DNA of 64,000 bases from Deltaproteobacteria bacterium (GCA_016703535.1 JADJBV010000001.1:6382270-6446269), one strand, 5' to 3'; counted from the stretch's first letter, positions 12,580 to 40,495 are shown. Numbers and translations are program-made. Notes: generated by a model not told the origin, from the letters alone.

Positions 12580-15500
12580 TCAGTACCAGTTGCCCGCCAC
12601 GGAGCCAGGACAGCTCCCGCCGGTGGTCACTTGGCCCGCGGCCCCCACACCCCCACCGTATGGGTTGTTGGTGCCGAAGTGCCACCGATACTCGGGCGAG
12701 TTGCAGGTGCAGGTGGCGCCGGGGGTCACGGTGGTGAAGGTCCCGCCGCAGGCGCGACCGCAGTTGGTCACGTTGTAGTGTCGATTGCAGGCGTCGAGGG
12801 CCCGCTGGTAGGAGCTCGTGTCGACCGGGCTCTCGTTGTAGAAGAGGGTCCCGAGGCCGGTGCTGTGTTCGTAACCTCGGAGGCCACATCCGCCGCTCGA
12901 GTCCACCGGAGCCTCACGACCGTCGGCAATGCCGTTGAAGCAACGACCCTCGATCTTCTGCACCAAAGCCACGCCGGAAGGTCCGATCGCTTGGGTGGCG
13001 TTGCCGCCGAAGAGGTACATCTTCCCGTGCAGCGTCGTGTGGGCGAAGCGATCCAGCGGCGACAGTAGGGCGCTGTCTGGGCCGATCGGGGTCAAGGCCG
13101 CGCCGCTGACGACCGCTTCACTCTCGATGACCTTGGTGGGCTGGTCGGCCCGCCGACCGGCGACCAGGCTCAATTGATCCCGCACCACGAAGGCGGCGCC
13201 ATGAGAGAAGGTAAAGCGCGCCGAGCTGCGGCTCGTCCAGTTGTTGCTGACGAAGCTGAGCATGGTGTTGTGGGGCGTGCCTTGATCGTTGAGGCCGCCG
13301 ACCACTCGCACCACCCCGGCGTGGGTGAAGGCCGAGGCCCCGGTGCGGGCGCTCGGGAGCACCGGCGCGCTGCTCCAGGTGTTGGCCACGGTGTCGTAGA
13401 CCTCGACCGTCTGGAGCGCACCGCCGTTGTAGCCGCCGATCACCCAGATCTGGGTGCCCTTGACCGTCACGGCCGCGTCCCGACGCGCCACCTGCATCGG
13501 CGTGCGCGGGATCCACTGGTTGAGGATCGGATCGTAGGCCCGGACGGTGGCCACTGAGTTGCCGAAGCTGTCGGCGCCGCCGATGGCGTACACCAGGTCC
13601 CCGACCGCGGCCGCCACCAGGCCACTTTGATGGGTGCCGAGGGGCGGGAGGATCCGATAGACCTCGGTCTCGGGATCGAACTCCCAGGCGGTGAGTTCTT
13701 CGGAGAAGTTGCGCCCTCCGAAGAGATAAACGCGGCCGTTGAGGGTGGCGGCGGCCTGCATGAAGCGCGCAGCCGGAAGTTCGGCCAAACGCCGCACGTA
13801 GTCCTGCGAGAAGTTGAACTGGACGCTGGTGTCCACCGGGCCGGCGCTGGTCTGGCCGCCGAGCACCCAAAGCGCAGCGCGTTGGGTGTCGACGTCGTCG
13901 GTGTCGACCACGATCAGGCCGGAGCCGCTGTGACGAGCGGCCGGCATCGGGGTGCGTTCGCGCCAGGCGTCGTCTTCGATGAGGTACTCCTCGACCTTGG
14001 CGGTGGCCGCACCACCGGCGACGCGACCGCCGGCGATCACCAGCCCGCGATGCCCACCATTCACTACCCCGGCGTTGATCAACTTACCGCCGGCCGCGAA
14101 GGAGCGCGGCGTCGGGAGCGCGGCCCCCAAGCTCCAGCTGTTGGCGCCGACGTCATAGATGTCGACCTCGGGGATCGGGTTGCCTTGGGCGTCTTCACCG
14201 CCGGCGACGATGATCCGGTTGCCCTCCACCACCGCGTTGAACGCATAACGCGGTCGCGGGAGTTGAGCGACCTGGTTGGTCCAGGCGCCGGTGCCGAGGT
14301 TCAGGACCTCGTGGTTCGGGAGCACCACGCCGCCGTTGGTCTTGCCACCCAGGACGTGGACCGAGTTGCCGACCACGACCGCGCTGAGGCCGAAGCGGGT
14401 GCTGGGCATGGGCGCCAAGTTCTCCCAGGTCGCTTGGGCGTTGCTGAGATCGAGCCGCTCGACCCGACCGAGGGGCGTGCCGTTGTTTTCGCCGCCGATG
14501 GCGTAGAGTTGGTTGCCCGAAGCCGCGATCGCCAGCTGGGCCCGGCCGCCGCTCATCGAGGCCAAGGCGGTCCAGGTCGCGGTCCCGAGGTCGTAGGCGA
14601 AGGCGCCCGCCTGGGGCGCGAGGCCGTCGGAGCCGCCGACCATGATCACCCGGGTGCCGACTTGGGTGGCCGCGGTGTGGATCAGGCTCTCCGAGAGCAT
14701 GGGCGCTGGGCGCCAGCCATTGCCATGGCCGGTGATCTCGTAGCTGGCGTCCACCACGTTGGCTTGCCAGTTGCCGGCCCGGTCCCGGGCCCGAAGGCGC
14801 AGGGTCGTGTCGTCGAAGACCCGGATGTCCTTCACCGACTCGAAGCTCTCCGAGTCTTCGGTGGGCGTCGAACCGTCGGTGGTGAAGTACACGGTGGCCG
14901 GTTCATCGCTGGCCAGGCGCACGGTGACGCCATTCAGGAAGGTGCCGCCCGAGGGGCTGAGAGAGGTGTTGGGAGGCGTGATGTCGTAGACGATCCGGGC
15001 CTCGATGGTGGCGCTCCCCTGGCCCTGGTCCACACTCCGCACCACGTAGACGTTTTCGCCAGGGACCAGGTTCAAGGCCACAGTCCAGGTGGTGTCGGGG
15101 CTCTGGGGCACGGCCTCCAGGCCGTTGATCTCCACCGAGGCGCCGGCCGGTTTGGTGCCGCCGAGGCTCAACACGCCGACGTTGGTCGGGGTGGTGTACG
15201 GGTTGAGGGTCGGCGGCTCGATGCACCCGCCGATGGGGCTCACCTGGCAGGTGCCGGCCTGGCAGACGTCGTTGGTGCAGGCATTGCCGTCGCTGCAGCT
15301 CGCGACCTGGGGCTCTTGGGCGCAGCGGTTCCGCGAGAAGTCGAAGTAGTCTCGGGTGCAGGGGTTGCGGTCGTTGCAGAGCGCGGCGTCATCGATGGCC
15401 TCACACACGCCGGCGTTGCAGATCTGCCCGATCGGACAGGCGCCGGTCTGATTGTTTTGGGAGCAGCCGATGCCGGCGTCGGTGCAGACCCCGGCGACGC

Positions 15501-16632
15501 AGTCGAAGCCGGTGGCGCAGAGGCCGTTGGGGTTGGTCGTGGAGCACAAGGTCGAGTCGGGTCGGCAGCGGCCCTCCAGGCAGGTCTCCTGGGTGCCGCA
15601 GACCGGGCATCCCGTCGGGGCTTCACACACGCCGTTGGTGCAGATCTCCCCGGCCGGGCACAGGCCCGTAGGCTCGGCCACCGAGCAGAGATCGGCGGTC
15701 GGGACACACAACCCTTCCAAGCAGCTGTTGCCGCTTGGGCACAGGCCGGTGGGGCGGGTGCTCGAGCACAAGAGCGTGGCGTCGACACATTGGGCGTCGA
15801 GACAGGTCTGTCCGGTCACACATCGTCCGCTGGGGTTGGTGGCGCTGCAGAGGTCGGCGTTTTCGACGCAGGCACCCTCGAGGCAGGTTTCGCTCATCGG
15901 GCAAAGACCCGCGGGCAACGCCGGCGCGCAGAGCAAGGTGTCGTTGGTGCAGTTGCCGTCGAGGCAGGTGCGACCGGTGGCGCAGAGGCCGCCTGGGTTC
16001 GCGGCGCTGCAGAGATCGCCCATGGCCACGCAGGTGCCGTCGAGGCAACGTTCACCGCCGGCGCAGAAGCCCATCGGCTCCGCGGGCGAACAGGGATTGG
16101 GCGTGGCGCAGGCGCCGTTGGTGCAGCTGAGGCCGCCGCCACACAACCCGGTCGGGTTGGTGGTGCTGCACAGGTTGGCCTCGGGGACGCAGTTCCCTTC
16201 GAGGCAGGCTTCGGTGGTGAGCAGGCACAAGCCCTCTTGGTTGGTGCCGGAGCACAACAACGCGTCGCTGATGCACTGGCCGGCGCGGCAGCTGGTCCCA
16301 GCGTCACAACGCCCGGTCGGGTTGGCGACGCTGCACAGGGCGGTCGCGCTTTCGCAGACGCCCCCGCGGCAGGTCTCGTTCGGCGGGCAGAGGCCCGTGG
16401 TGTTGCTCGCGCTACAGAAGGCCGCGTCCTCGAAGCACTGGCCGCCGTAACACTGGTATCCGGCCGCGCAGAGCCCGGTGGGGGCGAGGGGGCCGCAGAG
16501 TTCAGGGCCCACGCCGCTGTCGGCCGGCGGAGTGCCCGAGTCGGCGGGACTTGGCCCGGGCCGCTCGCTTTCGCCGCAGGCGGCGAAAAAGACCAAGGCG
16601 AGTCCGGGGACCAAATGGCGAGCGCTGAGCAT
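12580..16632 (-). CDS. Giant lipoprotein (1350 aa): about 17 tandem Cys-rich about 20-aa modules, Kelch-type beta-propeller repeats, chitobiase/beta-hexosaminidase-C-like domain
   Basis: Lipobox LALVFFAACG. Repeats of the form LCSxxNPxGLCxxGxxCxxGxC. Kelch motifs (W..L..MP..R.....VVGN.IYV.GG). Also TVYFTTDGSTPT. Confidence 0.75.
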   Translation of the reverse strand: MLSARHLVPGLALVFFAACGESERPGPSPADSGTPPADSGVGPELCGPLAPTGLCAAGYQCYGGQCFEDAAFCSASNTTGLCPPNETCRGGVCESATALCSVANPTGRCDAGTSCRAGQCISDALLCSGTNQEGLCLLTTEACLEGNCVPEANLCSTTNPTGLCGGGLSCTNGACATPNPCSPAEPMGFCAGGERCLDGTCVAMGDLCSAANPGGLCATGRTCLDGNCTNDTLLCAPALPAGLCPMSETCLEGACVENADLCSATNPSGRCVTGQTCLDAQCVDATLLCSSTRPTGLCPSGNSCLEGLCVPTADLCSVAEPTGLCPAGEICTNGVCEAPTGCPVCGTQETCLEGRCRPDSTLCSTTNPNGLCATGFDCVAGVCTDAGIGCSQNNQTGACPIGQICNAGVCEAIDDAALCNDRNPCTRDYFDFSRNRCAQEPQVASCSDGNACTNDVCQAGTCQVSPIGGCIEPPTLNPYTTPTNVGVLSLGGTKPAGASVEINGLEAVPQSPDTTWTVALNLVPGENVYVVRSVDQGQGSATIEARIVYDITPPNTSLSPSGGTFLNGVTVRLASDEPATVYFTTDGSTPTEDSESFESVKDIRVFDDTTLRLRARDRAGNWQANVVDASYEITGHGNGWRPAPMLSESLIHTAATQVGTRVIMVGGSDGLAPQAGAFAYDLGTATWTALASMSGGRAQLAIAASGNQLYAIGGENNGTPLGRVERLDLSNAQATWENLAPMPSTRFGLSAVVVGNSVHVLGGKTNGGVVLPNHEVLNLGTGAWTNQVAQLPRPRYAFNAVVEGNRIIVAGGEDAQGNPIPEVDIYDVGANSWSLGAALPTPRSFAAGGKLINAGVVNGGHRGLVIAGGRVAGGAATAKVEEYLIEDDAWRERTPMPAARHSGSGLIVVDTDDVDTQRAALWVLGGQTSAGPVDTSVQFNFSQDYVRRLAELPAARFMQAAATLNGRVYLFGGRNFSEELTAWEFDPETEVYRILPPLGTHQSGLVAAAVGDLVYAIGGADSFGNSVATVRAYDPILNQWIPRTPMQVARRDAAVTVKGTQIWVIGGYNGGALQTVEVYDTVANTWSSAPVLPSARTGASAFTHAGVVRVVGGLNDQGTPHNTMLSFVSNNWTSRSSARFTFSHGAAFVVRDQLSLVAGRRADQPTKVIESEAVVSGAALTPIGPDSALLSPLDRFAHTTLHGKMYLFGGNATQAIGPSGVALVQKIEGRCFNGIADGREAPVDSSGGCGLRGYEHSTGLGTLFYNESPVDTSSYQRALDACNRHYNVTNCGRACGGTFTTVTPGATCTCNSPEYRWHFGTNNPYGGGVGAAGQVTTGGSCPGSVAGNWY
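15300..16450 (-). repeat. Intragenic tandem repeat block encoding the Cys-rich modules
   Basis: Recurrent nucleotide and peptide pattern inside the giant lipoprotein gene. Confidence 0.5.
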
Positions 16633-23143: not shown

Positions 23144-23794
23144 TCAGCGTAGCGCCGGTCCTTGACCTTCCGCGCCCTCCGGGCCCTGCTTCTTGCGGTC
23201 GCCGAACAACATGGCTCGGATGCCGGTGTGAGGCTCGGAGACCGTGATGGCCAGGTACACGTGGACGATGAGGAACATCGTGAAGACATAGGCCGTCACC
23301 GAGTGCCCGATCGCGACCGGGAGGAGCCCCGGCAGGCTGGCGACCTTCTCGGGAACCGATAACGGAAAGAGCAAGAGCAGGCCCGTGCCGATCTGCACCG
23401 GGAACATGAGGAAAACCGCCCCGATGTAAGAGACCTGCTGCAGCGGGTTGAAGCGACTGACGACCGTCGCCGGAAATGGGTGGTGCCCGCCCTGGAAGAT
23501 GTCCGAGAGATAATAACGAACCTGCCTGGCCGCGCGCCGAAAGAACGGGCGCCGGGGGACGTACTGCCTCCAGTGTCCCGTCCAGACCATACTCGCCAGG
23601 TAGAAGACATAGGCGAGTGTGCAGGCCACCCCCGTGGCGTTGTGACCCAGGACCGCCCAGCGAAAGTAGCCGCCGGCCCCGGCCTCGCCGTAGTGCAGCG
23701 CGAAGCCCGTCGCTACCAGGGCCAGAAACAGGAACGCGTTCACCCAGTGCCAGGCCCGCAGCCATCCTGGGAACATCGGCGTCGGCTTCTTCAT
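23144..23794 (-). CDS. Membrane b-type cytochrome subunit (Ni/Fe-hydrogenase/formate dehydrogenase-gamma/PhsC-like), 216 aa
   Basis: MFPGWLRAWHWVNAFLFLALVATGFALH; four TM with conserved His; ATGA overlap with the upstream multiheme gene. Confidence 0.7.
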   Translation of the reverse strand: MKKPTPMFPGWLRAWHWVNAFLFLALVATGFALHYGEAGAGGYFRWAVLGHNATGVACTLAYVFYLASMVWTGHWRQYVPRRPFFRRAARQVRYYLSDIFQGGHHPFPATVVSRFNPLQQVSYIGAVFLMFPVQIGTGLLLLFPLSVPEKVASLPGLLPVAIGHSVTAYVFTMFLIVHVYLAITVSEPHTGIRAMLFGDRKKQGPEGAEGQGPALR

Positions 23795-24762
23795 GGGTGA
23801 GGACCTCCCGGGCCGATTCCGCGCTTCCTACGCACCAAGGCGGCCGCGGTGCGCAACAGCGCGTGACCCAAGATGCCCAGGAAGGTCAGCGTGGCGAGCG
23901 ACATGCCTATCAAGTCGAGGGTCTGATTTCGTGTCGCGCCGATGACATAGGCCTCGTTCAAGATCGCCGCGTTCATGAACCCATACTTCTCTTGCTCGAC
24001 CGCGTGCGCGTAGCGATAGGTCTTGAACTTCAGCACCGACGCCTCTTGATGGCAGGACTCGCACTTCGAGAGCGCTTGGGCCTTGGGCAGGATACGATGG
24101 CTCCCCACGACGCCCTCGGAGTTCGTGTGGCAGTCGACGCAGCGGACCGAACGCCAGTGGAGGTCGCGGTTGGGCAGCCACTGATGGGCCGCGTCAAGAT
24201 CGGGGGGCGCGCGATGGGCGAAGGTCCGGAACTCGAGCTCAGAGCCGTGGCAGCGCAGGCATGCCTGGTTGTGCTCGAGGGACTCGTCGGGAGTCATGCC
24301 GAAACGGATCCGGTGGGGATCGTGGCACCGGGCGCAGGTGAACTGCACGCTCTTGGTGGAGTGTACGCTCTGATCGAACTCACGGATGATCCGGACGAGG
24401 TCGACCTTGTGGCCCCGTTCGGAGCCGGCGGGTGCGGGGGCCCGAGCCTCGAACTCAGCGAGCACGCGCTCGTCCAGGTGACAGTGCGCGCAGTCCACGG
24501 GACGAAGGTCCTCGTCCTCCTTGTCATGCGCGATGCTGACGTCCTCCACGTCGCCGTGACACGAGATGCAGCCATGGAGGGCATGGACGGAGGCCCGGTA
24601 GGCGACCAGATCGATCTTGGGCGCCCGCGCGTCGCCCGTGCCCGCGTGGCAGATGAAGCACTCGGAATCGCGCGCCGTCCTCGGGATCGGGTTGTCCGCG
24701 ACCGCAGAGGTGGGCCACCCCAGCCCGGCCGCGAGCAGCCCGAGGATCGTTATGGTTCTCAT
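23791..24762 (-). CDS. Heptaheme cytochrome c with signal peptide and C-terminal TM anchor
   Basis: Seven CxxCH motifs (CFICH, CISCH, CAHCH, CARCH, CLRCH, CVDCH, CESCH). ATG 24760-24762 with GGAGG 6 nt upstream. ATGA overlap with the 22-heme gene. Confidence 0.8.
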   Translation of the reverse strand: MRTITILGLLAAGLGWPTSAVADNPIPRTARDSECFICHAGTGDARAPKIDLVAYRASVHALHGCISCHGDVEDVSIAHDKEDEDLRPVDCAHCHLDERVLAEFEARAPAPAGSERGHKVDLVRIIREFDQSVHSTKSVQFTCARCHDPHRIRFGMTPDESLEHNQACLRCHGSELEFRTFAHRAPPDLDAAHQWLPNRDLHWRSVRCVDCHTNSEGVVGSHRILPKAQALSKCESCHQEASVLKFKTYRYAHAVEQEKYGFMNAAILNEAYVIGATRNQTLDLIGMSLATLTFLGILGHALLRTAAALVRRKRGIGPGGPHP

Positions 24763-26270
24763 CGACCGCCTCCGCCGCTCGTGAAGGGGTGGCAGCCGTG
24801 ACAGGTCTGCGCCCCTGGCTCGTGCGTCCGTTGCGGCTCGTGGCACGCCCCCACGCAGCTGGCGCGGTCAAAGGCCGTAGCCTGGTCGTGGAAGCGATGG
24901 CAGTCCGCACAGACCCCGTGCTTAGGGATCATGTGGAGGGACGGCAGTGGCGGAGCATGACACTTCGTGCAGGGCTGCGGAGCCGCCGGGCCCTTGGGGC
25001 CGTGCGCTCGATGGCAGTCCGCGCAGGCCCGGGCGGGCTCGCTGTGTGGCCCAAGGCCCTGCTGAGCGTGGCATTCGACGCAGGTCTTCTTTAGCGCACC
25101 GTCGTGGGTCTGGTGGCAGTCCGCGCAGACGTCGTGGCCACGAGGCGCGCTGGTGTGTTCGGTCGGATGACACTTGGCGCAGGCTGGCGGCCGCAGGGCC
25201 GGGTCGTGGGCCTGGAGGTGGCAGGTGGTGCAGCGCTCGTGCCCCTTCACCGTCTTCACGTGCACGGGGTCGAGGACCGAAGGCGCAGCCGAAAGTGCAT
25301 GGCAGCGAACACACAGATCCTCAGGGGGCACCGGAGTCCGGATCTTTCCCGGCGCGTGGCAGCTCGCGCAGGCGACACGACGGCCATGGAACGCGGTGTC
25401 TGAAGCGGCTTGGAGGTGGCAACTCGAGCAGGGCGCTGATCGTACGGTGCCGCCGCCCAGATGGATATTCTGGTGGGCGTCGTGGCAGTCCTTGCACGTC
25501 CCCGGCTGGGTGGCGCTGAGCACCTCCCGGGCGTGCCCAACCTGGTGGCAGCTTTCGCACGGACGAACCCCGGAGCCGGCCCCGTGGGGCTCGTGGCAGC
25601 TCACGCAGCGCGTGTGCCCGGGCAGCCTGAGCTTCTGCGCTTCGTGGCAGCCCTGGCAGCGCTCGGCCGCGTCCTCCTTCGTTCGGTGGCCGACGTGGCA
25701 CTCGATACACTGCGCCGGACCTTTCAACGCCGAGTTGTGCGCAGTGAAGCTGCTCTCGTGGCACCCGGCGCAGTCCCCGGGGCGCACCGCGGATTCGCCG
25801 TGCGGCGTATGGCACGCCTTGCAGGCCTCGGCCGCATGAACCGTGATGAGCGGCGCCTTGCTCGCCCAATCTTGTGCGGGAGCGCCCCGAGTCTGCTGCC
25901 CCTCTGCGGTGTGACAGCGAAGACAGCCCCACGGTGCCGCGGTCGTCGCGAGGAAGTCATGGCAGGTCAGACACTCTTTTGCGTCATCGCTGGCGGCGGC
26001 CCGGTGGACCGCCGACGCGCTCTTCTCGTGACAGCCGAGGCAACGCTGAGTCTTGGAGAGCACCTTGGCGCCCTCGATCCGGTGGCAGTCCGCGCAGACC
26101 GCCGGCTTCTCGGCGTTCAGGTGAGCCAGGTGGAGCGCACTCTGCAGGGCCTTGGCTTGCTCGGGGGTCGGCTCTTGGCCGGCGTCAGGGCTCGTCGCCG
26201 GGCGTTCCTGTGGGGTGCAGCTCCAGCCGAGACCCGCGAACAGGCAAGCGACGGCGAGCGATCTCAGCAT
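24759..26270 (-). CDS. Multiheme cytochrome c lipoprotein, 22 CxxCH + 1 CxxxCH motifs, 503 aa
   Basis: Lipobox VACLFAGLGWSC; heme motifs counted directly in the translation. Confidence 0.85.
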   Translation of the reverse strand: MLRSLAVACLFAGLGWSCTPQERPATSPDAGQEPTPEQAKALQSALHLAHLNAEKPAVCADCHRIEGAKVLSKTQRCLGCHEKSASAVHRAAASDDAKECLTCHDFLATTAAPWGCLRCHTAEGQQTRGAPAQDWASKAPLITVHAAEACKACHTPHGESAVRPGDCAGCHESSFTAHNSALKGPAQCIECHVGHRTKEDAAERCQGCHEAQKLRLPGHTRCVSCHEPHGAGSGVRPCESCHQVGHAREVLSATQPGTCKDCHDAHQNIHLGGGTVRSAPCSSCHLQAASDTAFHGRRVACASCHAPGKIRTPVPPEDLCVRCHALSAAPSVLDPVHVKTVKGHERCTTCHLQAHDPALRPPACAKCHPTEHTSAPRGHDVCADCHQTHDGALKKTCVECHAQQGLGPHSEPARACADCHRAHGPKGPAAPQPCTKCHAPPLPSLHMIPKHGVCADCHRFHDQATAFDRASCVGACHEPQRTHEPGAQTCHGCHPFTSGGGGR

Positions 26271-26667: not shown

Positions 26668-27969
26668 CTATGGCCGAGCAGGCGCCCAGGCGAGGCCGTA
26701 AGGCAGGGCACCGTGGACCCCAAAGGCCGCCCGCACCCGCTGGTTGCCGTCCAAAAACAGGACCCGGTGGGCCTCGTCGAGCTCGGGCCACTCCATGCGT
26801 TCGAGCTGGTTGTCCAACACGTTCGGCGGAACGGCGTCGGTCCGAGCCCGGTTGCGTCGGTGGTAGTCGGCGAGGTCCAGGTGAAAGACCACCAAGGTGA
26901 CCAAAGTGCCGTAGTCGAAGCCCAAACCAGCGACCCGGGTCCGGAAGTCCTGGCGCAAGCTGGTGGCGTCCCACACCACCGGCCGTTGTTTTCGCAAGCT
27001 GGCTTTCAATCGCTCTCTGCCTTCGGCGAGGACCCGATCGTTGGCGCCCTGATCACCTCGGTCCGAGCCGAGTTCTTCCCGCAGATCGTCGAGAGAGAGG
27101 TGATCGAAGCCGGCCAGGTGTTTTTGCGCGAAGGTGGTCTTGCCCGAGCCGCTGGGGCCAACGGTGATCACCAGATCCGAACGGGCCTCTCGGGCCTGAA
27201 AACTCCGGGCCACCGCCTCTTCTAGGCTGTGGATCTCACCCCGCTCTAAGCTGCGCCGGGCCTCGGACAGCGCAAAATCGATCACTTGATCGCCGTGACC
27301 CGCGAGGGACTCCACCAGCCGCGCCCGCCAGCTCGGGTCCTGCTCGCCGTGCCGAACGAACGCGCCGTAGTCTTCGGCGAAGAGCCGATACAGATCGATC
27401 TTCTCGATGGCCTCGGCCCGATCCCGGCAGGTCCGGCCCCGCATGTCCGCCTGCTCGACCCAATAGAGGAGCTCCGGATCGGCCAGGCGGCTGACCCGCT
27501 GATAGGCCCCGGCGCTCCGCTCCTTCACCACCAAAAACTTGGGCTCGTGGTGATGGCCGACCAAACCCAACAACACCTCCAGGGACGGATACGGCAACTC
27601 CTCCAACAACCGCGGCGCCAAATAGGAACGCCCCGCGGCCTCGTGACCCCGGGCGACGATGCGCTCCACCCCCTTCAGCTCCTGGGGTCGGGTGCAGATC
27701 GGCTTGGCGATGTCGTGGAGCAGGGCCCCCAACACCAAGAGCAATCGGCCCTCCCCTTCCAGGTGGGCGGCCGGCCCCGCGAGGAGTTGGTAGGCCTCGT
27801 CCATCACCATCTGGGTGTGGATGTGCACGTCGCCTTCGGCGTGCCACTCCGGATCTTGCGGCGTCTCTCGAAAGCGCCGCAACAACGGCAGCCGATCGCC
27901 CAGGGCCTCGACGCACTCGTCGAGGTTCGGAGACGCACCCCGACGAATCTCATCAAAGAAGGTCTTCAT
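26668..27969 (-). CDS. HD-domain phosphohydrolase fused to a P-loop (polynucleotide-kinase-like) NTPase, 433 aa
   Basis: HD motif LLHDIAKP; Walker A VITVGPSGSGKTTF; start ATG 27967-27969 in ATGA overlap with the RNA ligase stop. Confidence 0.65.
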   Translation of the reverse strand: MKTFFDEIRRGASPNLDECVEALGDRLPLLRRFRETPQDPEWHAEGDVHIHTQMVMDEAYQLLAGPAAHLEGEGRLLLVLGALLHDIAKPICTRPQELKGVERIVARGHEAAGRSYLAPRLLEELPYPSLEVLLGLVGHHHEPKFLVVKERSAGAYQRVSRLADPELLYWVEQADMRGRTCRDRAEAIEKIDLYRLFAEDYGAFVRHGEQDPSWRARLVESLAGHGDQVIDFALSEARRSLERGEIHSLEEAVARSFQAREARSDLVITVGPSGSGKTTFAQKHLAGFDHLSLDDLREELGSDRGDQGANDRVLAEGRERLKASLRKQRPVVWDATSLRQDFRTRVAGLGFDYGTLVTLVVFHLDLADYHRRNRARTDAVPPNVLDNQLERMEWPELDEAHRVLFLDGNQRVRAAFGVHGALPYGLAWAPARP

Positions 27970-28610
27970 GACTTCTTCCCGGGTTCTCGCAGGCCGTTGG
28001 GCGTCACCACCCCGTGCATCCAATGATCGTCGGTCTGAACGTGACCGCGCCGCACCCACTTGGCCACGTGCTCCGAAAAGCGCGCGTACGGGAAGGCGCC
28101 GGCGCTGCGCACCACGTACCCTTCACAACGTTGGAGATCGAGCTTGAGGCTCCGGAGCCGGGCGTCGTCGTAGGGCCCTTCGTAGAGCGTCGGCACCAAC
28201 TCGAGGCCCAGCCGCATGGCCCAAGCCTTGGTCTCGGCCCACGACAAACAAGTGTTGGTCTCATCCCAGATCGAAAAGACAAAGAAGTAGCTGGCCAGAT
28301 CTTCGTACGCCACCGAATGCCGCGCGTAGAGATTTTCGCCGCAGACCCGAAACCCCGCCGGGATCTGGTAGCCGATCTCGCCCTGCAGCCGCTTCAGCCA
28401 ATCCCGGGACGGGTGGTGACGGCCATCCAGCGAGCGGGCGTGGAGCCCATCTTGGTAGAGGGTCGAGTTTTCGCCGTCGAGCTTTTCGGTGACCACCACC
28501 GGGGCCGACGACAAAGCCGCCGGGACCTCGGTGACCAGATCGTCGCTGCTGACCCCGGGAGACCAGGGCAGATGGGGCGTCCTAGGATACTTGAAGCGTT
28601 GGGTCGCCAT
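27966..28610 (-). CDS. ATP-dependent RNA ligase (PF09414 RNA_ligase family), 214 aa
   Basis: MATQRFKYPRTPHLPW...VVVTEKLDGENSTLY (nucleotidyltransferase motif I KxDG). ATG 28608-28610. Confidence 0.7.
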   Translation of the reverse strand: MATQRFKYPRTPHLPWSPGVSSDDLVTEVPAALSSAPVVVTEKLDGENSTLYQDGLHARSLDGRHHPSRDWLKRLQGEIGYQIPAGFRVCGENLYARHSVAYEDLASYFFVFSIWDETNTCLSWAETKAWAMRLGLELVPTLYEGPYDDARLRSLKLDLQRCEGYVVRSAGAFPYARFSEHVAKWVRRGHVQTDDHWMHGVVTPNGLREPGKKS

Positions 28611-28616
28611 GACCCA

Positions 28617-28623
28617 CCTCCTT
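28617..28623 (-). promoter_or_regulatory. Ribosome-binding site AAGGAGG of the RNA ligase gene
   Basis: Plus-strand cctcctt, 6 nt upstream of ATG. Confidence 0.6.
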
Positions 28624-28699
28624 TGGCGGAGCCCAAGGCCCACGCCATCCCGCGATAGAGCATCGAGCGCAGAGCGGCTCGAAGGAACCGGGACCGAGG

Positions 28700-29450
28700 A
28701 GATTACATGGCGGAGGCTCGGAGAGATAAATAGGCTAAGCCAAGGCTCCGAAGGAGGTCAACCAGAGTTGCAGGACTTCAAGCTTCAGCGGACCAGAGAC
28801 CAACGACGACGATGGGATAGCAACCGGGTGGACCAGATCCGAGCGCTGGAAACGGCCAAACCCCCGCAGATCCCGGTGGCCACCAACACCCGCCCTTCGA
28901 CCGGGCAAGGAGCCGCGCCTGCTGCCCGCGGAAGATGGCTTCCACGAAGACCCGCGCCATCGCCGCCAGGCCGTCTGCACGGACCGCCAACAACCCGACC
29001 AACTCCGAAGGCGGAGACAGAACGTACTGCCGAATCGGAACATCGGGGAACACACGCTCCACGAAGTGCGTCGCGACGTCGTCCATCCACCGCGCGCCGC
29101 AGCTCGGGCAGAGGCCGCGCCCTTTGGTCGCTCCGGCCATCCTGGCCTCTCGCGACACTTCCCGCGTCCTGTGGGTCGCACGAAAACGCCAGCGCCCGCT
29201 CCACTTGGCAGTCCGGGCAGCGCAGCCTGACGAAGCCCGCCTCGGGGACACCGCACACCAGGAACCGCTCCACTGCCCGGCCCACGAACTTGGGGATGGG
29301 GACCCCGGCCTCCTTGCTCTGCGCCACTAGCGCCGGCCACCAGCGCGTCACCAGTCGGTGCAGCACGCCCGAGCGCGGATCGCGAGCGGAGTAGCGCCGA
29401 GGACGATCCACGCCAGGCCCGTAGGCCAGCCGCGTGCCCAGCCCCGGTGC
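28700..29450 (-). mobile_element. IS91-family (Y2 rolling-circle) transposase remnant, copy 1: N-terminal Zn-finger part only, degraded
   Basis: ORF 28785..29411 carries FLVCGVPEAGFVRLRCPDCQVERALAFSC (Zn_Tnp_IS91-like) then loses the frame. It shares a near-identical segment with copy 2. Confidence 0.55.
28938..29100. repeat. Direct repeat A (about 165 bp), near-identical to 39548-39715
   Basis: cttcgaccgggcaagg.gccgcgc.tgctgcccgcggaagatggcttc.acgaagacccgcgccatcgcc...aacaacccgaccaactccgaaggcgg.gacagaacgtact seen in both copies. Confidence 0.75.
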
Positions 29451-29803
29451 TCATGGTTCGGACGAGATTCGTCCGGATTTCGCAGGACGTCCGGAATCCG
29501 GACGGACGCGGGTTACCGGTCGCGTGTGCAAGGGCGCGGCCTGCGGGCTCGGGAAGACCTGGGTCGGCCCACCGGCCCGCATCGAAAACGCGTGGCGCTG
29601 GCCGCTGATCGACGCGTCGCAGACCGCGCAAACCCACGCTTCGTCTGGGTCGTCGAAGCTGAGGGCCCCGGGCCGCTGCACCGCAGTGCCTCGCCCTGTG
29701 TTCGGCTGCGGCTCGAGGGCGAACATCGCTCGCCCTCGAGTCTACTCGGTTACTCGATCCCGGACAGCGCGCGCTGCGCCCGAGCCATGGCGAAGGGTAG
29801 CCC

Positions 29804-30166
29804 TTAGGGGACGAAGACCTCGACCCGATCGACCGCGCCGAAGGCCATCACCGAGGCTCCGCCCGGCACGTAGATCCGATCACCAATCGCCGCGGCGCCT
29901 GTCCCGTGCCGGCCGGTGGTCATCGGGCTCAAGCTTGACCACCGCTCGGTCTCAAAGCTCCAAGCCTCGACCGCGTCAAAGACCGCGCTGGCGGCGCCGG
30001 TGTTGCCTTCGCCGCCGAAGACGTAGAGCGCCTCGTTGAGGATCGCGGCGGCGGCGCCTCCTCGAGAGGTCGGCATCGGGGGCCCGGCGCTCCAGGTACC
30101 GGCGGTGGGATCGTAGAGGTCGAGCTGAGCGGTGTGCCCCGTGATGGGTCTCCTTCGGAAAAGGTT
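29804..30166 (-). pseudogene. 3' fragment (about 115 codons) of a Kelch-repeat protein gene truncated at its 5' side
   Basis: Frame reads ...RRRPITGHTAQLDLYDPTAGTWSAGPPMPTSRGGAAAAILNEALYVFGG...GDRIYVPGG. An in-frame stop is at 30167-30169, exactly where GC content drops. Confidence 0.6.
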
Positions 30167-30217
30167 TCAAACACTTCGCCCGTGACATCGGCCGTCCGCC
30201 TCCTTGAAGTTGGGCTC

Positions 30218-38559: not shown

Positions 38560-39852
38560 AGGGATACCTCCCCTGGATGGCAGGACCTACTTGAACGCCG
38601 GTGAGGGGTCGAATGGGGGTCTGTGGTGGGGTTGAGGGGCGCTTCCTGGGGCGCAGGACGAGCCTCGGCCTCGCGAGGATGCTCGCCTTCAAGGCCCGGG
38701 GCGGAGCTGTGGTGCTCAGTTCGCGAGTGGGAGAGCTTGTTGCGGCCCGGGCGGGCCGGTGCTCTCCACCGGCACGAACTGGTTTCGACGCAAGGTCCTG
38801 GGGCAGCGGGGGCAGGAATGGCCGTTGACCTCGTAGACGCGGGCCAAGAGCTTCGCCCACGCTTCGCGATACGGCACTGGCGTTGCCGGCTCGAACTTCC
38901 GAGCCCCGAACCACGCGCCTTGCACCGCCACCCAGCCTGCTGGCACCACCTGCGGTCGAAGCCGCGCGGCCGGCGCCAGCACCCCGAAGGCGCGGATCTG
39001 ATGCTGCCGCGGGGGAGGCACCAGCCAGGCCAGGCGCCGGAGCAACGAGAGCGGATGCAGCAGCAGCTCCTGCTGCGTGGTGCGCGTCGGGCGGCGGAGC
39101 GTGAACCGCGCCTGCGCCTCGTCGATGAGCTCGAGCTGGGCCTCCGCGAACGGCGGCCGGGCGGCGTAGCGCACGAGCTGGGCGCGACCGGCGCGGTCGT
39201 CGGCGCCGACCCGCACGCTCGCGTTGACCTCGAAGCGACCTCGGAGCTTCTTCGGCTCCACACTGACGATCCCTACGGCGCACGGGCCGCCGTTGGCCAC
39301 CACGGGTCGTCGGGCCGGCCCTCGGCGCCCTCCTCGAGATACCCATGGCGACGCAGCCACCCCAAAAACCGAAGCTCCACCTCGTCCTCGAGGGCCCCAC
39401 GCTCTCCGGCCGAGGGGCCTTGGTCCTGGCGGAATTCTAGCGTGCCGACGTCCTCCTCCAAGTAGCCGCCGTCGAGCACCCGCACGTGCAGGTGCGGATA
39501 GACCGAAAGCGTCTTCGTGAACCGCTGCACGAACGCCACCGCCCCGCCCTTCGACCGGGCAAGGGGCCGCGCTGCTGCCCGCGGAAGATGGCTTCTACGA
39601 AGACCCGCGCCATCGCCTCCTGGGCGTCGGCACGGGCCGCCAACAACCCGACCAACTCCGAAGGCGGCGACAGAACGTACTACCGAATCGGAGGTAGGCG
39701 TCGATCTCGCCCGCCAGATCCTGGAGCGATCGGCAGGTGCCACGGCGGAGCAGCCGGTCGAGGTGAAAGACGCCGTCCATCAGGCGTCGCCTGCCGGCGA
39801 CTCGGGCGGATACCGGGGGGCGGTCCCGCTTGATTCGCTTCGTCTTGCTCAC
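38560..39852 (-). mobile_element. IS91-family transposase pseudogene, copy 2 (full length but split over three frames)
   Basis: N-terminus MSKTKRIKRDRPP... (39852). Middle AVAFVQRFTKTLSVYPHLHVRVLDGGYLEE (Y2_Tnp HPHxH motif) in a second frame. C-terminal-like WAKLLARVYEV...CPRC in a third frame. Confidence 0.6.
39548..39715. repeat. Direct repeat A', partner of 28938-29100
   Basis: See repeat A. Confidence 0.75.
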
Positions 39853-40009
39853 GCCAAGCTCCCAGCCATCCCTTGGGGGAAGCTCTTGTCATGAGACCCT
39901 GGGGCAGGAGCAATGTCGGGAACCCAGTTCGGTGGCCGAGTTGGGTCCAGGTACTCAGGATAGTTGGGCGGGCGCAGGTCCGCGGATCCAAGCGACCCAC
40001 TCCGTAGTG

Positions 40010-40350
40010 CCTTCGGCGGGTCCGGGGACCTCGACAAAGCGGTCTCGAGTCGGTGCGGGGACCTGCCTCGACCCGAGCTCGGCGTCTATCGACTGGGTTT
40101 TTGGGTCCGCCCAGGCGGCCGAGCCACTGTGGAGTCTGGGTGGAGGATAAAAGTGGAGGGCCGAGGACCCGTCGCGGCGTCTGAATTGAGTCCCGGGACC
40201 CGAAGAAGGCACTGCGGAGTGGCTTCGTTGGGTCCCGGGACCCAGGCCGGATCACCTCGACCCAACCGGGTTGGGTCCGGGGACTGCTTAAAACGCTGTG
40301 AGTCGACGGGTGTCCGGATTCGTCCGGATTCGTCCGGATTCGTCCGGACG
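40010..40350. repeat. Cluster of 14-bp palindromes GGGTCCCGGGACCC (and variants, x4) followed by (GTCCGGATTC)x3 tandem
   Basis: Read directly at 40018, 40186, 40225, 40272 and 40311-40345; related tccggatt/tccggaat motif at 29470-29500 beside IS copy 1. Confidence 0.65.
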
Positions 40351-40495
40351 ATTTGTCCGGCCGGACGAACGCCGGACGCCGCGGATCCCGAAGGTGCAGT
40401 GATTCCGCAGGAGGATGTCCGGCACGCGGCTTGAAGATGGGTTCGGCATGACCTCGGACACGGAGTCCGAGCTCCAACCTATGAGGAGATTGACC

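What the first reader, a model, noticed from the sequence alone, without database searches (positions are those of the whole stretch)
29804..30170. Insertion scar: Kelch-repeat gene truncated exactly at the GC-content breakpoint
The minus-strand frame encodes canonical Kelch blades (YDPTAGTWSAGPPMPTSRGG..., LYVFGG, GDRIYVPGG). Upstream it runs into ...RRRPITGHTAQ preceded by an in-frame stop at 30167-30169 where the low-GC island begins. This pins the left junction of the island to a few nucleotides and shows that a host gene was disrupted.
Basis: seen in the sequence. Interest (0 to 1): 0.6.

Follow-up and report, generated by a model that had tools for sequence, protein, structure and literature searches.

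The report
Dead Kelch gene stub beside IS91
The last third of a Kelch-repeat lipoprotein gene really does end where a low-GC anti-phage defence island begins, but it is one seam of a patchwork bracketed by two decayed IS91-type rolling-circle insertion sequences, not the scar of a clean insertion into a host gene; this is ordinary mobile-element wreckage.

Summary
On the minus strand, 30166->29804 encodes 120 codons after an in-frame TGA (30167-30169). Positions 30157->29807 match the C-terminal ~117 residues of ~380-aa Kelch lipoproteins at 52-61% identity. The GC change point (30142, support 30086-30204) coincides with the end of homology.

The "insertion scar in a host gene" reading is only partly supported.
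- The missing ~260 N-terminal codons are not in another frame, not at the far end of the island, and not elsewhere in the window.
- There is no target-site duplication, integrase or tRNA, and no GTTC/CTTG at the junction.
- The stub and a 296-nt spacer lie directly against the terIS end (29507) of a 3'-truncated IS91-family element (28889-29507).
- The 8.3-kb island carries a Methyltransf_34-like/DUF1848 pair, a ThsA-like/ThiC-like pair and PDC-M19A/B. It ends exactly at the oriIS terminus (38497) of a second, directly repeated, frameshifted IS91 copy (38497-39692).

Best reading (about 0.45): an IS91-bracketed mosaic built by one-ended rolling-circle transposition or IS-linked recombination, with the stub as carried-along or left-over DNA. 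In-situ insertion with deletion remains possible (about 0.3). Interest is low.

The parts
28889..29507 (-). IS-L: 3'-truncated IS91-family element. It has the terIS end with two 7-bp hairpins and a plus-strand terminal GGAC at 29504-29507. The transposase starts at GTG 29411, carries the Zn_Tnp_IS91 domain and about the first 175 codons, and has at least one frameshift.
   Evidence: Pfam Zn_Tnp_IS91 in two frames. tblastn of P0055/P0043/P0036 maps to 29411->28886. Homology to L092 and IS-R stops at 28889. The L092 terIS remnant's homology stops at 29507. Hairpins.
29508..29803 (-). Spacer B: 296 nt of high-GC (~0.70-0.73) DNA between the Kelch stop codon and the terIS end of IS-L. It matches nothing.
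   Evidence: No repeats or homology. No Pfam hit for its 91-aa ORF. No terminator-like site.
29804..30166 (-). Kelch 3' remnant. Homology runs 30157->29807, with the stop codon at 29804-29806. It corresponds to the C-terminal ~117 of ~380 aa. The annotated 90-aa ORF starts at ATG 30076.
   Evidence: Orthologue lengths. GC 0.686 and GC3 0.826, host-like.
30158..30169 (.). Junction between Kelch homology and low-GC DNA. It includes the in-frame TGA at 30167-30169. No recognisable recombination signature is present.
   Evidence: End of homology. GC change point 30142, support 30086-30204. No duplication or IS91 tetranucleotide.
30170..38496 (.). Low-GC (0.56-0.62) defence island D. It carries a Methyltransf_34-like gene (30218 or 30317 to 31222, +), DUF1848 (31198-32142, +), a ThiC-like radical SAM gene (32671-33747, -), ThsA-like SIR2+STALD (33723-35132, -), PDC-M19B (35217-36050, -), PDC-M19A/DUF488 (36057-37304, -), and two unknown genes (37151-37804 and 37872-38435, -).
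   Evidence: Pfam. PADLOC and NCBIfam. GC3 0.61-0.73 against 0.80-0.88 for flanking genes. Module conservation in L088-L091 and L093-L094.
38497..39692 (-). IS-R: second IS91-family copy in the same orientation as IS-L. It holds the oriIS-side terminus ...CTTGAGTTTCCTATTCGCCC at 38497, the transposase stop at 38716, and the Y2_Tnp domain from about codon 125 to the end, with at least 2 frameshifts. It is 5'-truncated at 39692.
   Evidence: Pfam Y2_Tnp. tblastn mapping. Three independent copies (window, L081, L092) lose homology at the same base with different flanks. The 151-nt overlap with IS-L (28889-29039 = 39543-39692, 93%) is.
39693..40318 (.). Segment F: unrelated 626 nt occupying the place of the IS-R transposase 5' part. 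It contains GGGTCCCGGGACCC-type palindromes.
   Evidence: (inverted repeat I1). No Pfam hits.
40319..40376 (-). terIS-like end, probably of IS-R. It is similar to 29457-29512, has a plus-strand terminal GAAC, and overlaps a 10-nt tandem repeat GTCCGGATTC x3.7 (40312-40348).
   Evidence: Local alignment. The motif occurs only at these two places in 64 kb. Hairpin z = -3.7. Tandem repeat. Metagenome contig L082 starts at 40291 and has one repeat unit fewer.

Best explanation
The Kelch piece is a non-functional 3' remnant: about 2.5 of 6 propeller blades, with no signal peptide. It forms one seam of an ~11.5-kb mosaic bracketed by two directly repeated, decayed IS91-family elements. These are HUH/Y2 rolling-circle insertion sequences.

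Read along the transposase strand, the order is: IS-R (terIS-like end, F, transposase 3' part, oriIS end) | defence island D | Kelch remnant | spacer B | IS-L (terIS end, transposase 5' part).

IS91-family elements start replication at oriIS, downstream of tnpA. They are meant to stop at terIS, upstream of tnpA. When termination fails, they carry along the DNA lying beyond terIS. This is one-ended transposition.

B, the Kelch remnant and D lie exactly in that position relative to IS-L. D also ends exactly at the oriIS terminus of IS-R. That layout is expected if an IS plus its cargo either landed next to a resident copy or entered as a circle by recombination with a resident copy.

On this reading, the Kelch stub is carried-along or left-over DNA. 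It marks where an IS91 copy once sat ~300 nt downstream of an intact Kelch gene. The 5' two-thirds of the gene were left behind or deleted, not displaced to the other side of the island. Both IS copies later decayed through frameshifts, a 3' deletion of IS-L, and replacement of the 5' part of IS-R by F.

Shown: the anatomy, the IS termini, the absence of the other gene half, and the foreign composition of D. Inferred: that IS91 activity, rather than an unrelated event, made the Kelch/D seam, and the order of events.
For: - Stub is real and truncated. Orthologues are 379-389 aa.
- The N-terminal part is absent from all frames, from both island ends and from the whole window. No close full-length copy from the same 6.9-Mb contig appeared among database hits.
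- IS91 parts: Zn_Tnp_IS91 on the left and Y2_Tnp on the right, same strand, with a 151-nt overlap at 93% identity.
- The oriIS terminus at 38497 is defined by three independent copies. It coincides with the right GC change point interval, 38454-38742.
- The terIS terminus at 29507 is defined by L092 and by similarity to 40319-40376, with subterminal hairpins and terminal GGAC/GAAC.
- D has foreign composition (GC3 0.61-0.73 against 0.80-0.88) and no recombinase of its own.
- No tRNA, direct repeats or duplication that would indicate site-specific integration.
- Literature: IS91-family termination fails in 1-14% of events or more, no target duplication is made, and up to 40 kb can be mobilised (PMC13181058). 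IS801 was seen recruiting 290-1431 nt lying immediately upstream of the element (PMC3189936).
Against: - The Kelch/D seam itself carries no IS91 signature. No GAAC/GGAC/CAAG-type tetranucleotide marks either cargo end (30158 or 38496), whereas experimental one-ended products end in such a tetranucleotide.
- The three oriIS flanks (GCTG, TCGA, GATA) show no GTTC/CTTG target.
- IS-L lacks its oriIS half, so it cannot be shown to have been a competent donor.
- The two copies are only 93% identical in their overlap, so they are not recent products of one event.
- No second instance of B plus the Kelch stub next to an IS91 was found anywhere.
- The stub's GC and GC3 are host-like, which is equally compatible with a native gene.
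Confidence: 0.45

Rival explanations
1. In-situ insertion with deletion. The Kelch gene was a native chromosomal gene. Arrival of the low-GC island, by whatever route, replaced its 5' two-thirds. The IS91 copies are later or incidental insertions at the island's edges.
For: - The break coincides with the GC step.
- The stub's GC 0.686 and GC3 0.826 match flanking host genes.
- The lineage is rich in Kelch proteins: a 1350-aa Kelch ORF at 12580-16632 here, and a 523-aa one in L092.
- The stub has no frameshift over 354 nt.
- No donor copy of the stub was found elsewhere.
Against: - It requires an unexplained ~780-nt deletion.
- There is no duplication, att-like repeat, integrase or tRNA.
- It needs two IS91 copies to have landed independently in the same orientation, one with terIS facing the stub and the other with its oriIS terminus exactly on the island/host boundary.
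- No synteny between orthologue neighbourhoods in 80 other genomes and this window supports a native position, although those relatives are distant.
Confidence: 0.3
2. Hotspot litter. The region is a recombination or defence-island hotspot in which unrelated pieces accumulated by illegitimate or homologous recombination and deletions. The pieces are IS91 fragments, a gene stub, several defence modules and segment F. The Kelch/D seam would then be a random deletion end point, with no single mechanism behind the layout.
For: - Both IS copies are fragmentary, and one is interrupted by unrelated DNA (F).
- L092 shows a scrambled head-to-head terIS remnant of the same IS family, and L086 shows a copy cut by an IS110. 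Such wreckage is therefore common in these genomes.
- D is itself a mosaic of independent modules that occur separately elsewhere.
- PMC3189936 argues that IS801 fragments mostly reflect rearrangements.
- No junction signature is present.
Against: It does not explain why D ends on the exact oriIS terminus, or why B and the stub start on the exact terIS terminus, of two co-oriented copies.
Confidence: 0.2
3. Assembly artefact. The Kelch/D junction is a chimeric join in the metagenome-assembled contig.
For: - The source is a MAG.
- An independent metagenome contig (L082) breaks at 40291 inside the IS-R terIS repeat, which shows the region is hard to assemble.
Against: - The junction at 30158 is not inside a repeat.
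- The contig is 6.9 Mb, consistent with long reads.
- Chimeric joins normally occur at repeats.
Confidence: 0.05

Closest known systems
IS91-family / ISCR one-ended transposition units (IS91, IS801, IS1294, ISCR1 complex class 1 integrons)
   Same: - A split Zn_Tnp_IS91 + Y2_Tnp transposase.
- Two different ends: subterminal hairpins plus terminal GGAC/GAAC at the upstream (terIS) end, and a defined downstream (oriIS) terminus.
- No target duplication.
- Foreign genes lie directly beyond terIS of one copy and directly against oriIS of another.
- A truncated gene fragment sits next to terIS, like the 290-1431 nt recruited by IS801.
   Different: - The cargo is anti-phage defence genes, not resistance or virulence genes.
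- The host is an uncultured high-GC deltaproteobacterium or Myxococcota-like MAG.
- No canonical GTTC/CTTG lies next to oriIS, and no terIS-like tetranucleotide marks the cargo ends.
- Both copies are dead, so activity is inferred only.
Genomic island integrated into a gene or tRNA by a site-specific recombinase
   Same: A compositionally distinct ~8-kb block of accessory (defence) genes with a sharp boundary inside a truncated gene.
   Different: No integrase, tRNA or flanking direct repeats. The other half of the target gene is absent.
Bacterial Kelch-repeat lipoproteins of ~380 aa, labelled 'N-acetylneuraminic acid mutarotase' (NanM-like) by JGI for several homologues
   Same: 52-61% identity over the last 2.5 blades to full-length proteins in Myxococcota, Bradymonadia and Chloroflexota MAGs.
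   Different: Only the C-terminal third is present. The signal peptide and blades 1-3.5 are missing, so it cannot fold as a propeller.

Membership tests
Kelch-repeat beta-propeller protein (intact gene) | Kelch motifs detectable by profile | tested here: met
   Kelch_1 E=2.2e-16, Kelch_6 E=2.6e-15.
Kelch-repeat beta-propeller protein (intact gene) | A complete propeller (about 6 blades) plus the N-terminal leader seen in the orthologues | tested here: not met
   Only residues ~249/263/273 to the end of 359-389-aa orthologues align. Nothing lies upstream in any frame.
IS91-family insertion sequence | HUH/Y2 transposase with Zn_Tnp_IS91 and Y2_Tnp domains | tested here: met
   Both domains are present, but split between IS-L (Zn_Tnp_IS91) and IS-R (Y2_Tnp) and frameshifted.
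IS91-family insertion sequence | Two dissimilar ends: terIS upstream of tnpA with a subterminal palindrome next to a GTTC/GTCC-type cleavage tetranucleotide, and oriIS downstream of tnpA | tested here: met
   terIS at 29507 with two 7-bp hairpins and GGAC (GTCC on the sense strand); IS-R has GAAC. The oriIS terminus at 38497 is shared by three copies. Family description from PMC13181058.
IS91-family insertion sequence | Target tetranucleotide 5'-GTTC/CTTG abutting oriIS | tested here: not met
   The flanks of the three copies are GCTG, TCGA and GATA. The specificity of this subgroup is unknown.
IS91-family insertion sequence | No target-site duplication | tested here: met
   No shared flank longer than chance at any pair of ends.
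One-ended-transposition (ISCR-like) cargo | Cargo contiguous with the terIS end of an IS copy | tested here: met
   B, the Kelch stub and D start at 29508, directly after the IS-L terIS end.
One-ended-transposition (ISCR-like) cargo | Distal cargo end marked by a terIS-like tetranucleotide (GAAC/GGAC/CAAG) | tested here: not met
   None at 30150-30170 or at 38490-38496. Criterion from PMC3189936.
One-ended-transposition (ISCR-like) cargo | The carrying IS copy has an intact oriIS | tested here: not met
   IS-L is truncated at 28889 and lacks its oriIS half. It may have been deleted later.
One-ended-transposition (ISCR-like) cargo | The same IS-plus-cargo unit found at another locus or in another genome | tested here: inconclusive
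   No close copy of the stub in 5.8 billion proteins. No plasmid match. The source genome itself could not be fetched.
Simple insertion into a gene (insertion scar) | Both halves of the interrupted gene flank the insert | tested here: not met
   No N-terminal Kelch sequence at 38-41 kb or elsewhere.
Simple insertion into a gene (insertion scar) | Target-site duplication or att-type direct repeats at the two ends | tested here: not met
   Longest common string of the two island ends is 5 nt, and 290 of 300 shuffles did as well.
Integrase-borne genomic island | Tyrosine or serine recombinase gene and a tRNA/att site | tested here: not met
   No recombinase domain in the island ORFs. No tRNA or Rfam hit in 64 kb.

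The most novel reading that the evidence does not exclude
An IS91-family (ISCR-like) rolling-circle element in an uncultured high-GC deltaproteobacterium captured and moved a whole 8.3-kb anti-phage defence island by one-ended transposition. The island holds a ThsA-like/ThiC-like pair, PDC-M19A/B and a Methyltransf_34-like/DUF1848 pair. The Kelch stub would be a fossil of an earlier chromosomal address. This would extend the ISCR gene-capture route, known for antibiotic-resistance genes, to defence systems.
Probability: 0.35. Interest if true: 0.5.

Novelty: new member of a known kind. Interest (0 to 1): 0.25.

Why it matters
For genome annotation, the 90-aa 'hypothetical protein' IPG45_25840 should be flagged as a pseudogene remnant. 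The 28.9-40.4 kb block should be flagged as an IS91-bracketed mobile mosaic.

More generally, a gene stub at a GC step is not enough to infer that an island inserted into a host gene. Here the stub is itself flanked by mobile-element ends.

If the IS91 capture reading is right, it is a further example of rolling-circle insertion sequences shuttling defence genes. That would be of moderate interest for how defence islands spread outside model bacteria.

Tried and rejected
- Frameshift continuation of the Kelch ORF. All three minus-strand frames upstream of 30166 were translated, and tblastn was run with three full-length orthologues at word size 2 and E<=50. Nothing was found.
- Missing N-terminal half at the island's right end. 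It is absent; IS91-R lies there instead.
- Target-site duplication and IS91 tetranucleotides at the junctions. None found.
- Intact close orthologue or empty site in other genomes. The genome-contig scan gave at most 61% identity and no shared neighbourhood. The metagenome scan with the right-flank gene gave only a 1.5-kb same-species contig starting at 40291.
- Source genome. It is not retrievable.
- Plasmid relatives of the block. None at megablast or blastn sensitivity.
- Short Kelch hits P0005 and P0006 as possible parallel truncations. They are frameshift-split genes in long-read assemblies with no IS91 nearby.
- Kelch protein near the terIS remnant in L092 as a possible source. It is only 36% identical, so this is a coincidence.
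- Single-event origin of the two IS halves (circular permutation or over-replication of a 10,653-nt circle). Considered unlikely because the 151-nt overlap is only 93% identical.
- Promoter and terminator scan of 29300-30400. Nothing found.
- DNA for P0055, the only N-terminally complete close transposase. Not available.

Full report
**1. The observation**

The plus-strand sequence and its minus-strand translation show an open frame of 120 codons from 30166 down to the stop at 29804-29806. An in-frame TGA (plus-strand tca, 30167-30169) lies immediately upstream. The peptide is ...RRRPITGHTAQLDLYDPTAGTWSAGPPMPTSRGG...LYVFGGEGN...GDRIYVPGGASVMAFGAVDRVEVFVP.

It scores Kelch_1 E=2.2e-16 and Kelch_6 E=2.6e-15. 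GenBank annotates only the 90 codons from the internal ATG at 30076. That protein is a hypothetical protein (IPG45_25840, MBK6687922.1) of a 'MAG: Deltaproteobacteria bacterium' with a 6.9-Mb contig.

GC falls from about 0.70 to 0.56-0.60 at this point. A two-segment likelihood change point lies at 30142, with support 30086-30204.

**2. How much of the gene is left**

A scan of species-representative genomes found 80 loci encoding relatives, the best at 61% identity. The full genes are 379 aa (L004, Bradymonadia MAG) and 389 aa (L003). In L001, a Myxococcota-type MAG, the gene is about 360 aa. All three have a long acidic leader, and L001 and L003 show a lipobox-like LLAAC motif.

tblastn of these against the window aligns only residues 263-379, 273-389 and 249-359, to 30157/30145->29807. 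About 260 N-terminal codons (~780 nt) are missing. What remains is roughly 2.5 of 6 blades without an export signal, so it cannot be a functional propeller.

Homology ends between the arginine codon at 30157-30155, which matches the conserved GGR motif, and the phenylalanine codon at 30160-30158. The seam is therefore pinned to about 30158-30169.

**3. Not a frameshift and not a split gene**

None of the three minus-strand frames upstream shows Kelch sequence. The plus strand there carries a well-supported Methyltransf_34-like gene. A permissive tblastn (word size 2, E<=50) found no N-terminal Kelch segment anywhere in 28-42 kb. The only other signal is a ~25-30%-identical paralogue inside the 1350-aa ORF at 12580-16632.

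Among database proteins, no other hit came from the same 6.9-Mb contig. The stub is therefore not a partial copy of a resident full-length gene, as far as that search can see.

**4. What the low-GC block is**

From ~30170 to 38496 lie these genes:
- a Methyltransf_34-like gene (30218-31222, +; homologues suggest the real start is M34 at 30317);
- DUF1848 (31198-32142, +);
- a ThiC-like radical-SAM gene (32671-33747, -);
- a ThsA-like SIR2+STALD gene (33723-35132, -; PADLOC ThsA1 E=5.5e-66);
- PDC-M19B (35217-36050, -) and PDC-M19A/DUF488 (36057-37304, -);
- two unknown genes (37151-37804 and 37872-38435, -).

GC3 of these genes is 0.61-0.73, against 0.80-0.88 for flanking genes. The block is a typical mosaic defence island. 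The Methyltransf_34/DUF1848 pair recurs in other defence contexts. The block has no recombinase. The window holds no tRNA or Rfam family, and no plasmid in PLSDB resembles it.

**5. The decisive context: two IS91-family remnants**

*IS-L, to the left of the stub.* The minus strand at 29411->28889 encodes the Zn_Tnp_IS91 domain and the first ~175 codons of an IS91-family transposase, with a frameshift.

*IS-R, to the right of the island.* The minus strand at 39692->38716 encodes the Y2_Tnp part, from about codon 125 to the end, with at least two frameshifts.

The two pieces are co-oriented. They overlap by 151 nt (28889-29039 = 39543-39692, 93% identity, 10,653 nt apart).

*The oriIS end.* Related copies fix the element's ends. 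L081 (88% identity) and L092 (84%, from a 6.0-Mb contig of GCA_963852965.1) both lose homology to the window at exactly 38497. The terminus reads ...CTTGA(A/G)TTTCCTAT(T/C)CGCCC, followed by three different flanks. This is the end downstream of tnpA, the oriIS side in the IS91 family (PMC13181058). It lies within the right-hand GC change-point interval, 38454-38742. The island therefore ends exactly on an IS terminus.

*The terIS end.* Upstream of the IS-L start codon, 29457-29512 resembles 40319-40376. A 14-mer from it occurs only at these two places in the 64 kb. A remnant in L092 loses homology at 29507.

This end has two perfect 7-bp hairpins and a terminal GGAC (GAAC in the right-hand copy). 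That matches the described terIS architecture, a subterminal palindrome next to a GTTC/GTCC-type cleavage site, and the GAAC/GGAC left ends of IS801 (PMC3189936).

*Resulting map.* IS-L is 28889-29507, with its 3' half deleted. IS-R is 38497-39692 plus a terIS-like end at 40319-40376. An unrelated 626-nt palindrome-rich segment F replaces its 5' coding part.

**6. Reading the layout**

On the plus strand the order is: IS-L (oriIS half lost ... terIS) | B (296 nt) | Kelch stub | island D | (oriIS) IS-R ... terIS-like | host gene from ~40.5 kb.

IS91-family elements replicate from oriIS towards terIS. When termination fails (1-14% in classical assays, up to ~50% with transposase alone), they carry the DNA beyond terIS, up to 40 kb, without a target duplication. 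IS801 was seen recruiting 290-1431 nt immediately upstream of itself.

B, the stub and D are exactly in that cargo position for IS-L. D also abuts the exact oriIS terminus of IS-R. A cargo-bearing unit landing next to a resident copy would produce this. So would a circular one-ended product recombining with a resident copy, the route proposed for ISCR1-borne resistance regions (my own knowledge of the ISCR literature, not verified here).

On this reading, the stub records that an IS91 copy once lay ~300 nt downstream of an intact Kelch gene. The seam with D was made during capture or insertion, and the rest of the gene was left behind.

**7. Why I hold this at only ~0.45**

- The seam has no IS91 hallmark. 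No GAAC/GGAC/CAAG-type tetranucleotide marks either cargo end, and no canonical GTTC/CTTG lies next to the three oriIS termini.
- IS-L has no oriIS left.
- The two copies differ by 7% in their overlap.
- No second occurrence of the stub was found.
- PMC3189936 warns that most genomic IS801 fragments stem from rearrangements, not one-ended transposition.
- The stub's composition is host-like, which also fits a native gene cut in place with loss of ~780 nt (rival, ~0.3).
- Piecemeal wreckage in a hotspot (~0.2) is supported by how scrambled these IS copies are here and in L086/L092.
- A chimeric assembly is unlikely because the seam is not in a repeat (~0.05).

Synteny could not settle native versus imported. 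The neighbourhoods of 80 orthologues share nothing with this window. The only same-species metagenome contig begins at 40291.

**8. Verdict**

The truncated gene and its coincidence with the GC step are real. The inference 'an island inserted into a host gene and this is its scar' is only partly right. The break does mark the left edge of the foreign low-GC DNA. But the gene's other half is gone, no insertion signature exists, and the stub is itself sandwiched between an IS91 terIS end and the island, inside an IS91-bracketed mosaic.

This is a new example of a known kind of mobile-element wreckage and is of low interest in itself. The most interesting reading that remains open is IS91/ISCR-like capture of a defence island.

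**Side observation.** The ThsA-like gene overlaps a ThiC-like radical-SAM gene. The same overlapping pair occurs in two unrelated metagenome contigs, with the ThsA-like proteins 43-48% and the ThiC-like proteins 51-53% identical to the window's. No TIR partner is present, and the ThiC-like protein had no PADLOC model hit. This may merit its own follow-up.

Noticed in passing
window 32671-35132 (minus strand); L093 1080-3493; L094 3-1294: A ThsA-like SIR2+STALD gene (33723-35132) overlaps by 25 nt a co-oriented ThiC-like radical-SAM gene (32671-33747). That gene scores Pfam ThiC_Rad_SAM E=2e-44 but falls far below the NCBIfam ThiC cut-offs, and it had no PADLOC hit. The same overlapping pair is found on two unrelated metagenome contigs, with the ThsA-like proteins 43-48% and the ThiC-like proteins 51-53% identical to the window's. 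No TIR-type ThsB is present. This ThiC-like clade is small: 56 representatives at E<1e-30 among 1.84 billion. It may be a Thoeris-like system with a different partner enzyme.
   Followed up: partly
window 30218-32142; L088 8001-9860; L089-L091: The Methyltransf_34-like and DUF1848 genes form a conserved adjacent pair. In other contigs the pair sits beside large helicases, type I restriction-modification genes, an HNH protein or a serine recombinase. Homologues are ~307 aa, so the real start here is probably M34 (30317), not 30218.
   Followed up: partly
window 35217-37304: A PDC-M19B / PDC-M19A (DUF488-containing) pair, a PADLOC candidate defence system, with very strong profile matches (E=1e-108 and 7e-100).
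   Followed up: no
window 26668-28643 (minus strand): Overlapping RNA ligase (PF09414) and HD + AAA_33 kinase (weakly Pnkp-like) genes form an RNA-repair-type pair immediately left of the truncated IS91 copy. GC here is slightly below the surroundings (0.61-0.66), so the foreign region may extend further left than 28889.
   Followed up: no
window 39693-40376; L082: A 626-nt segment with several GGGTCCCGGGACCC-type palindromes replaces the 5' part of the right-hand IS91 copy. Next to it, a 10-nt tandem repeat GTCCGGATTC (3.7 copies, 40312-40348) is length-polymorphic: a 98%-identical metagenome contig has one unit fewer and starts at 40291.
   Followed up: partly
L092 3335-3469 and 9614-10912 (GCA_963852965.1, 6.0-Mb contig): A related genome carries a 5'-truncated copy of the same IS with the identical oriIS terminus. 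It also carries a scrambled head-to-head pair of terIS-side remnants. IS21-type, Mu-type and phage-integrase genes lie within 10 kb.
   Followed up: partly
window 12580-16632 (minus strand): A 1350-aa ORF contains many Kelch repeats. It is only ~25-30% identical to the stub's family, so it is a paralogue and not the missing half.
   Followed up: no
window 32143-32670: A 528-nt gene-free gap lies between the convergent DUF1848 and ThiC-like genes inside the island. Its GC (0.64-0.69) is higher than the rest of the island, and it contains three short tandem repeats. It may be another seam between modules.
   Followed up: no
window 23791-26270 (minus strand): Two adjacent multihaem c-type cytochrome genes (Cytochrome_C7/c3 and paired CXXCH motifs) lie left of the RNA-repair pair. 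They are probably part of the host backbone.
   Followed up: no
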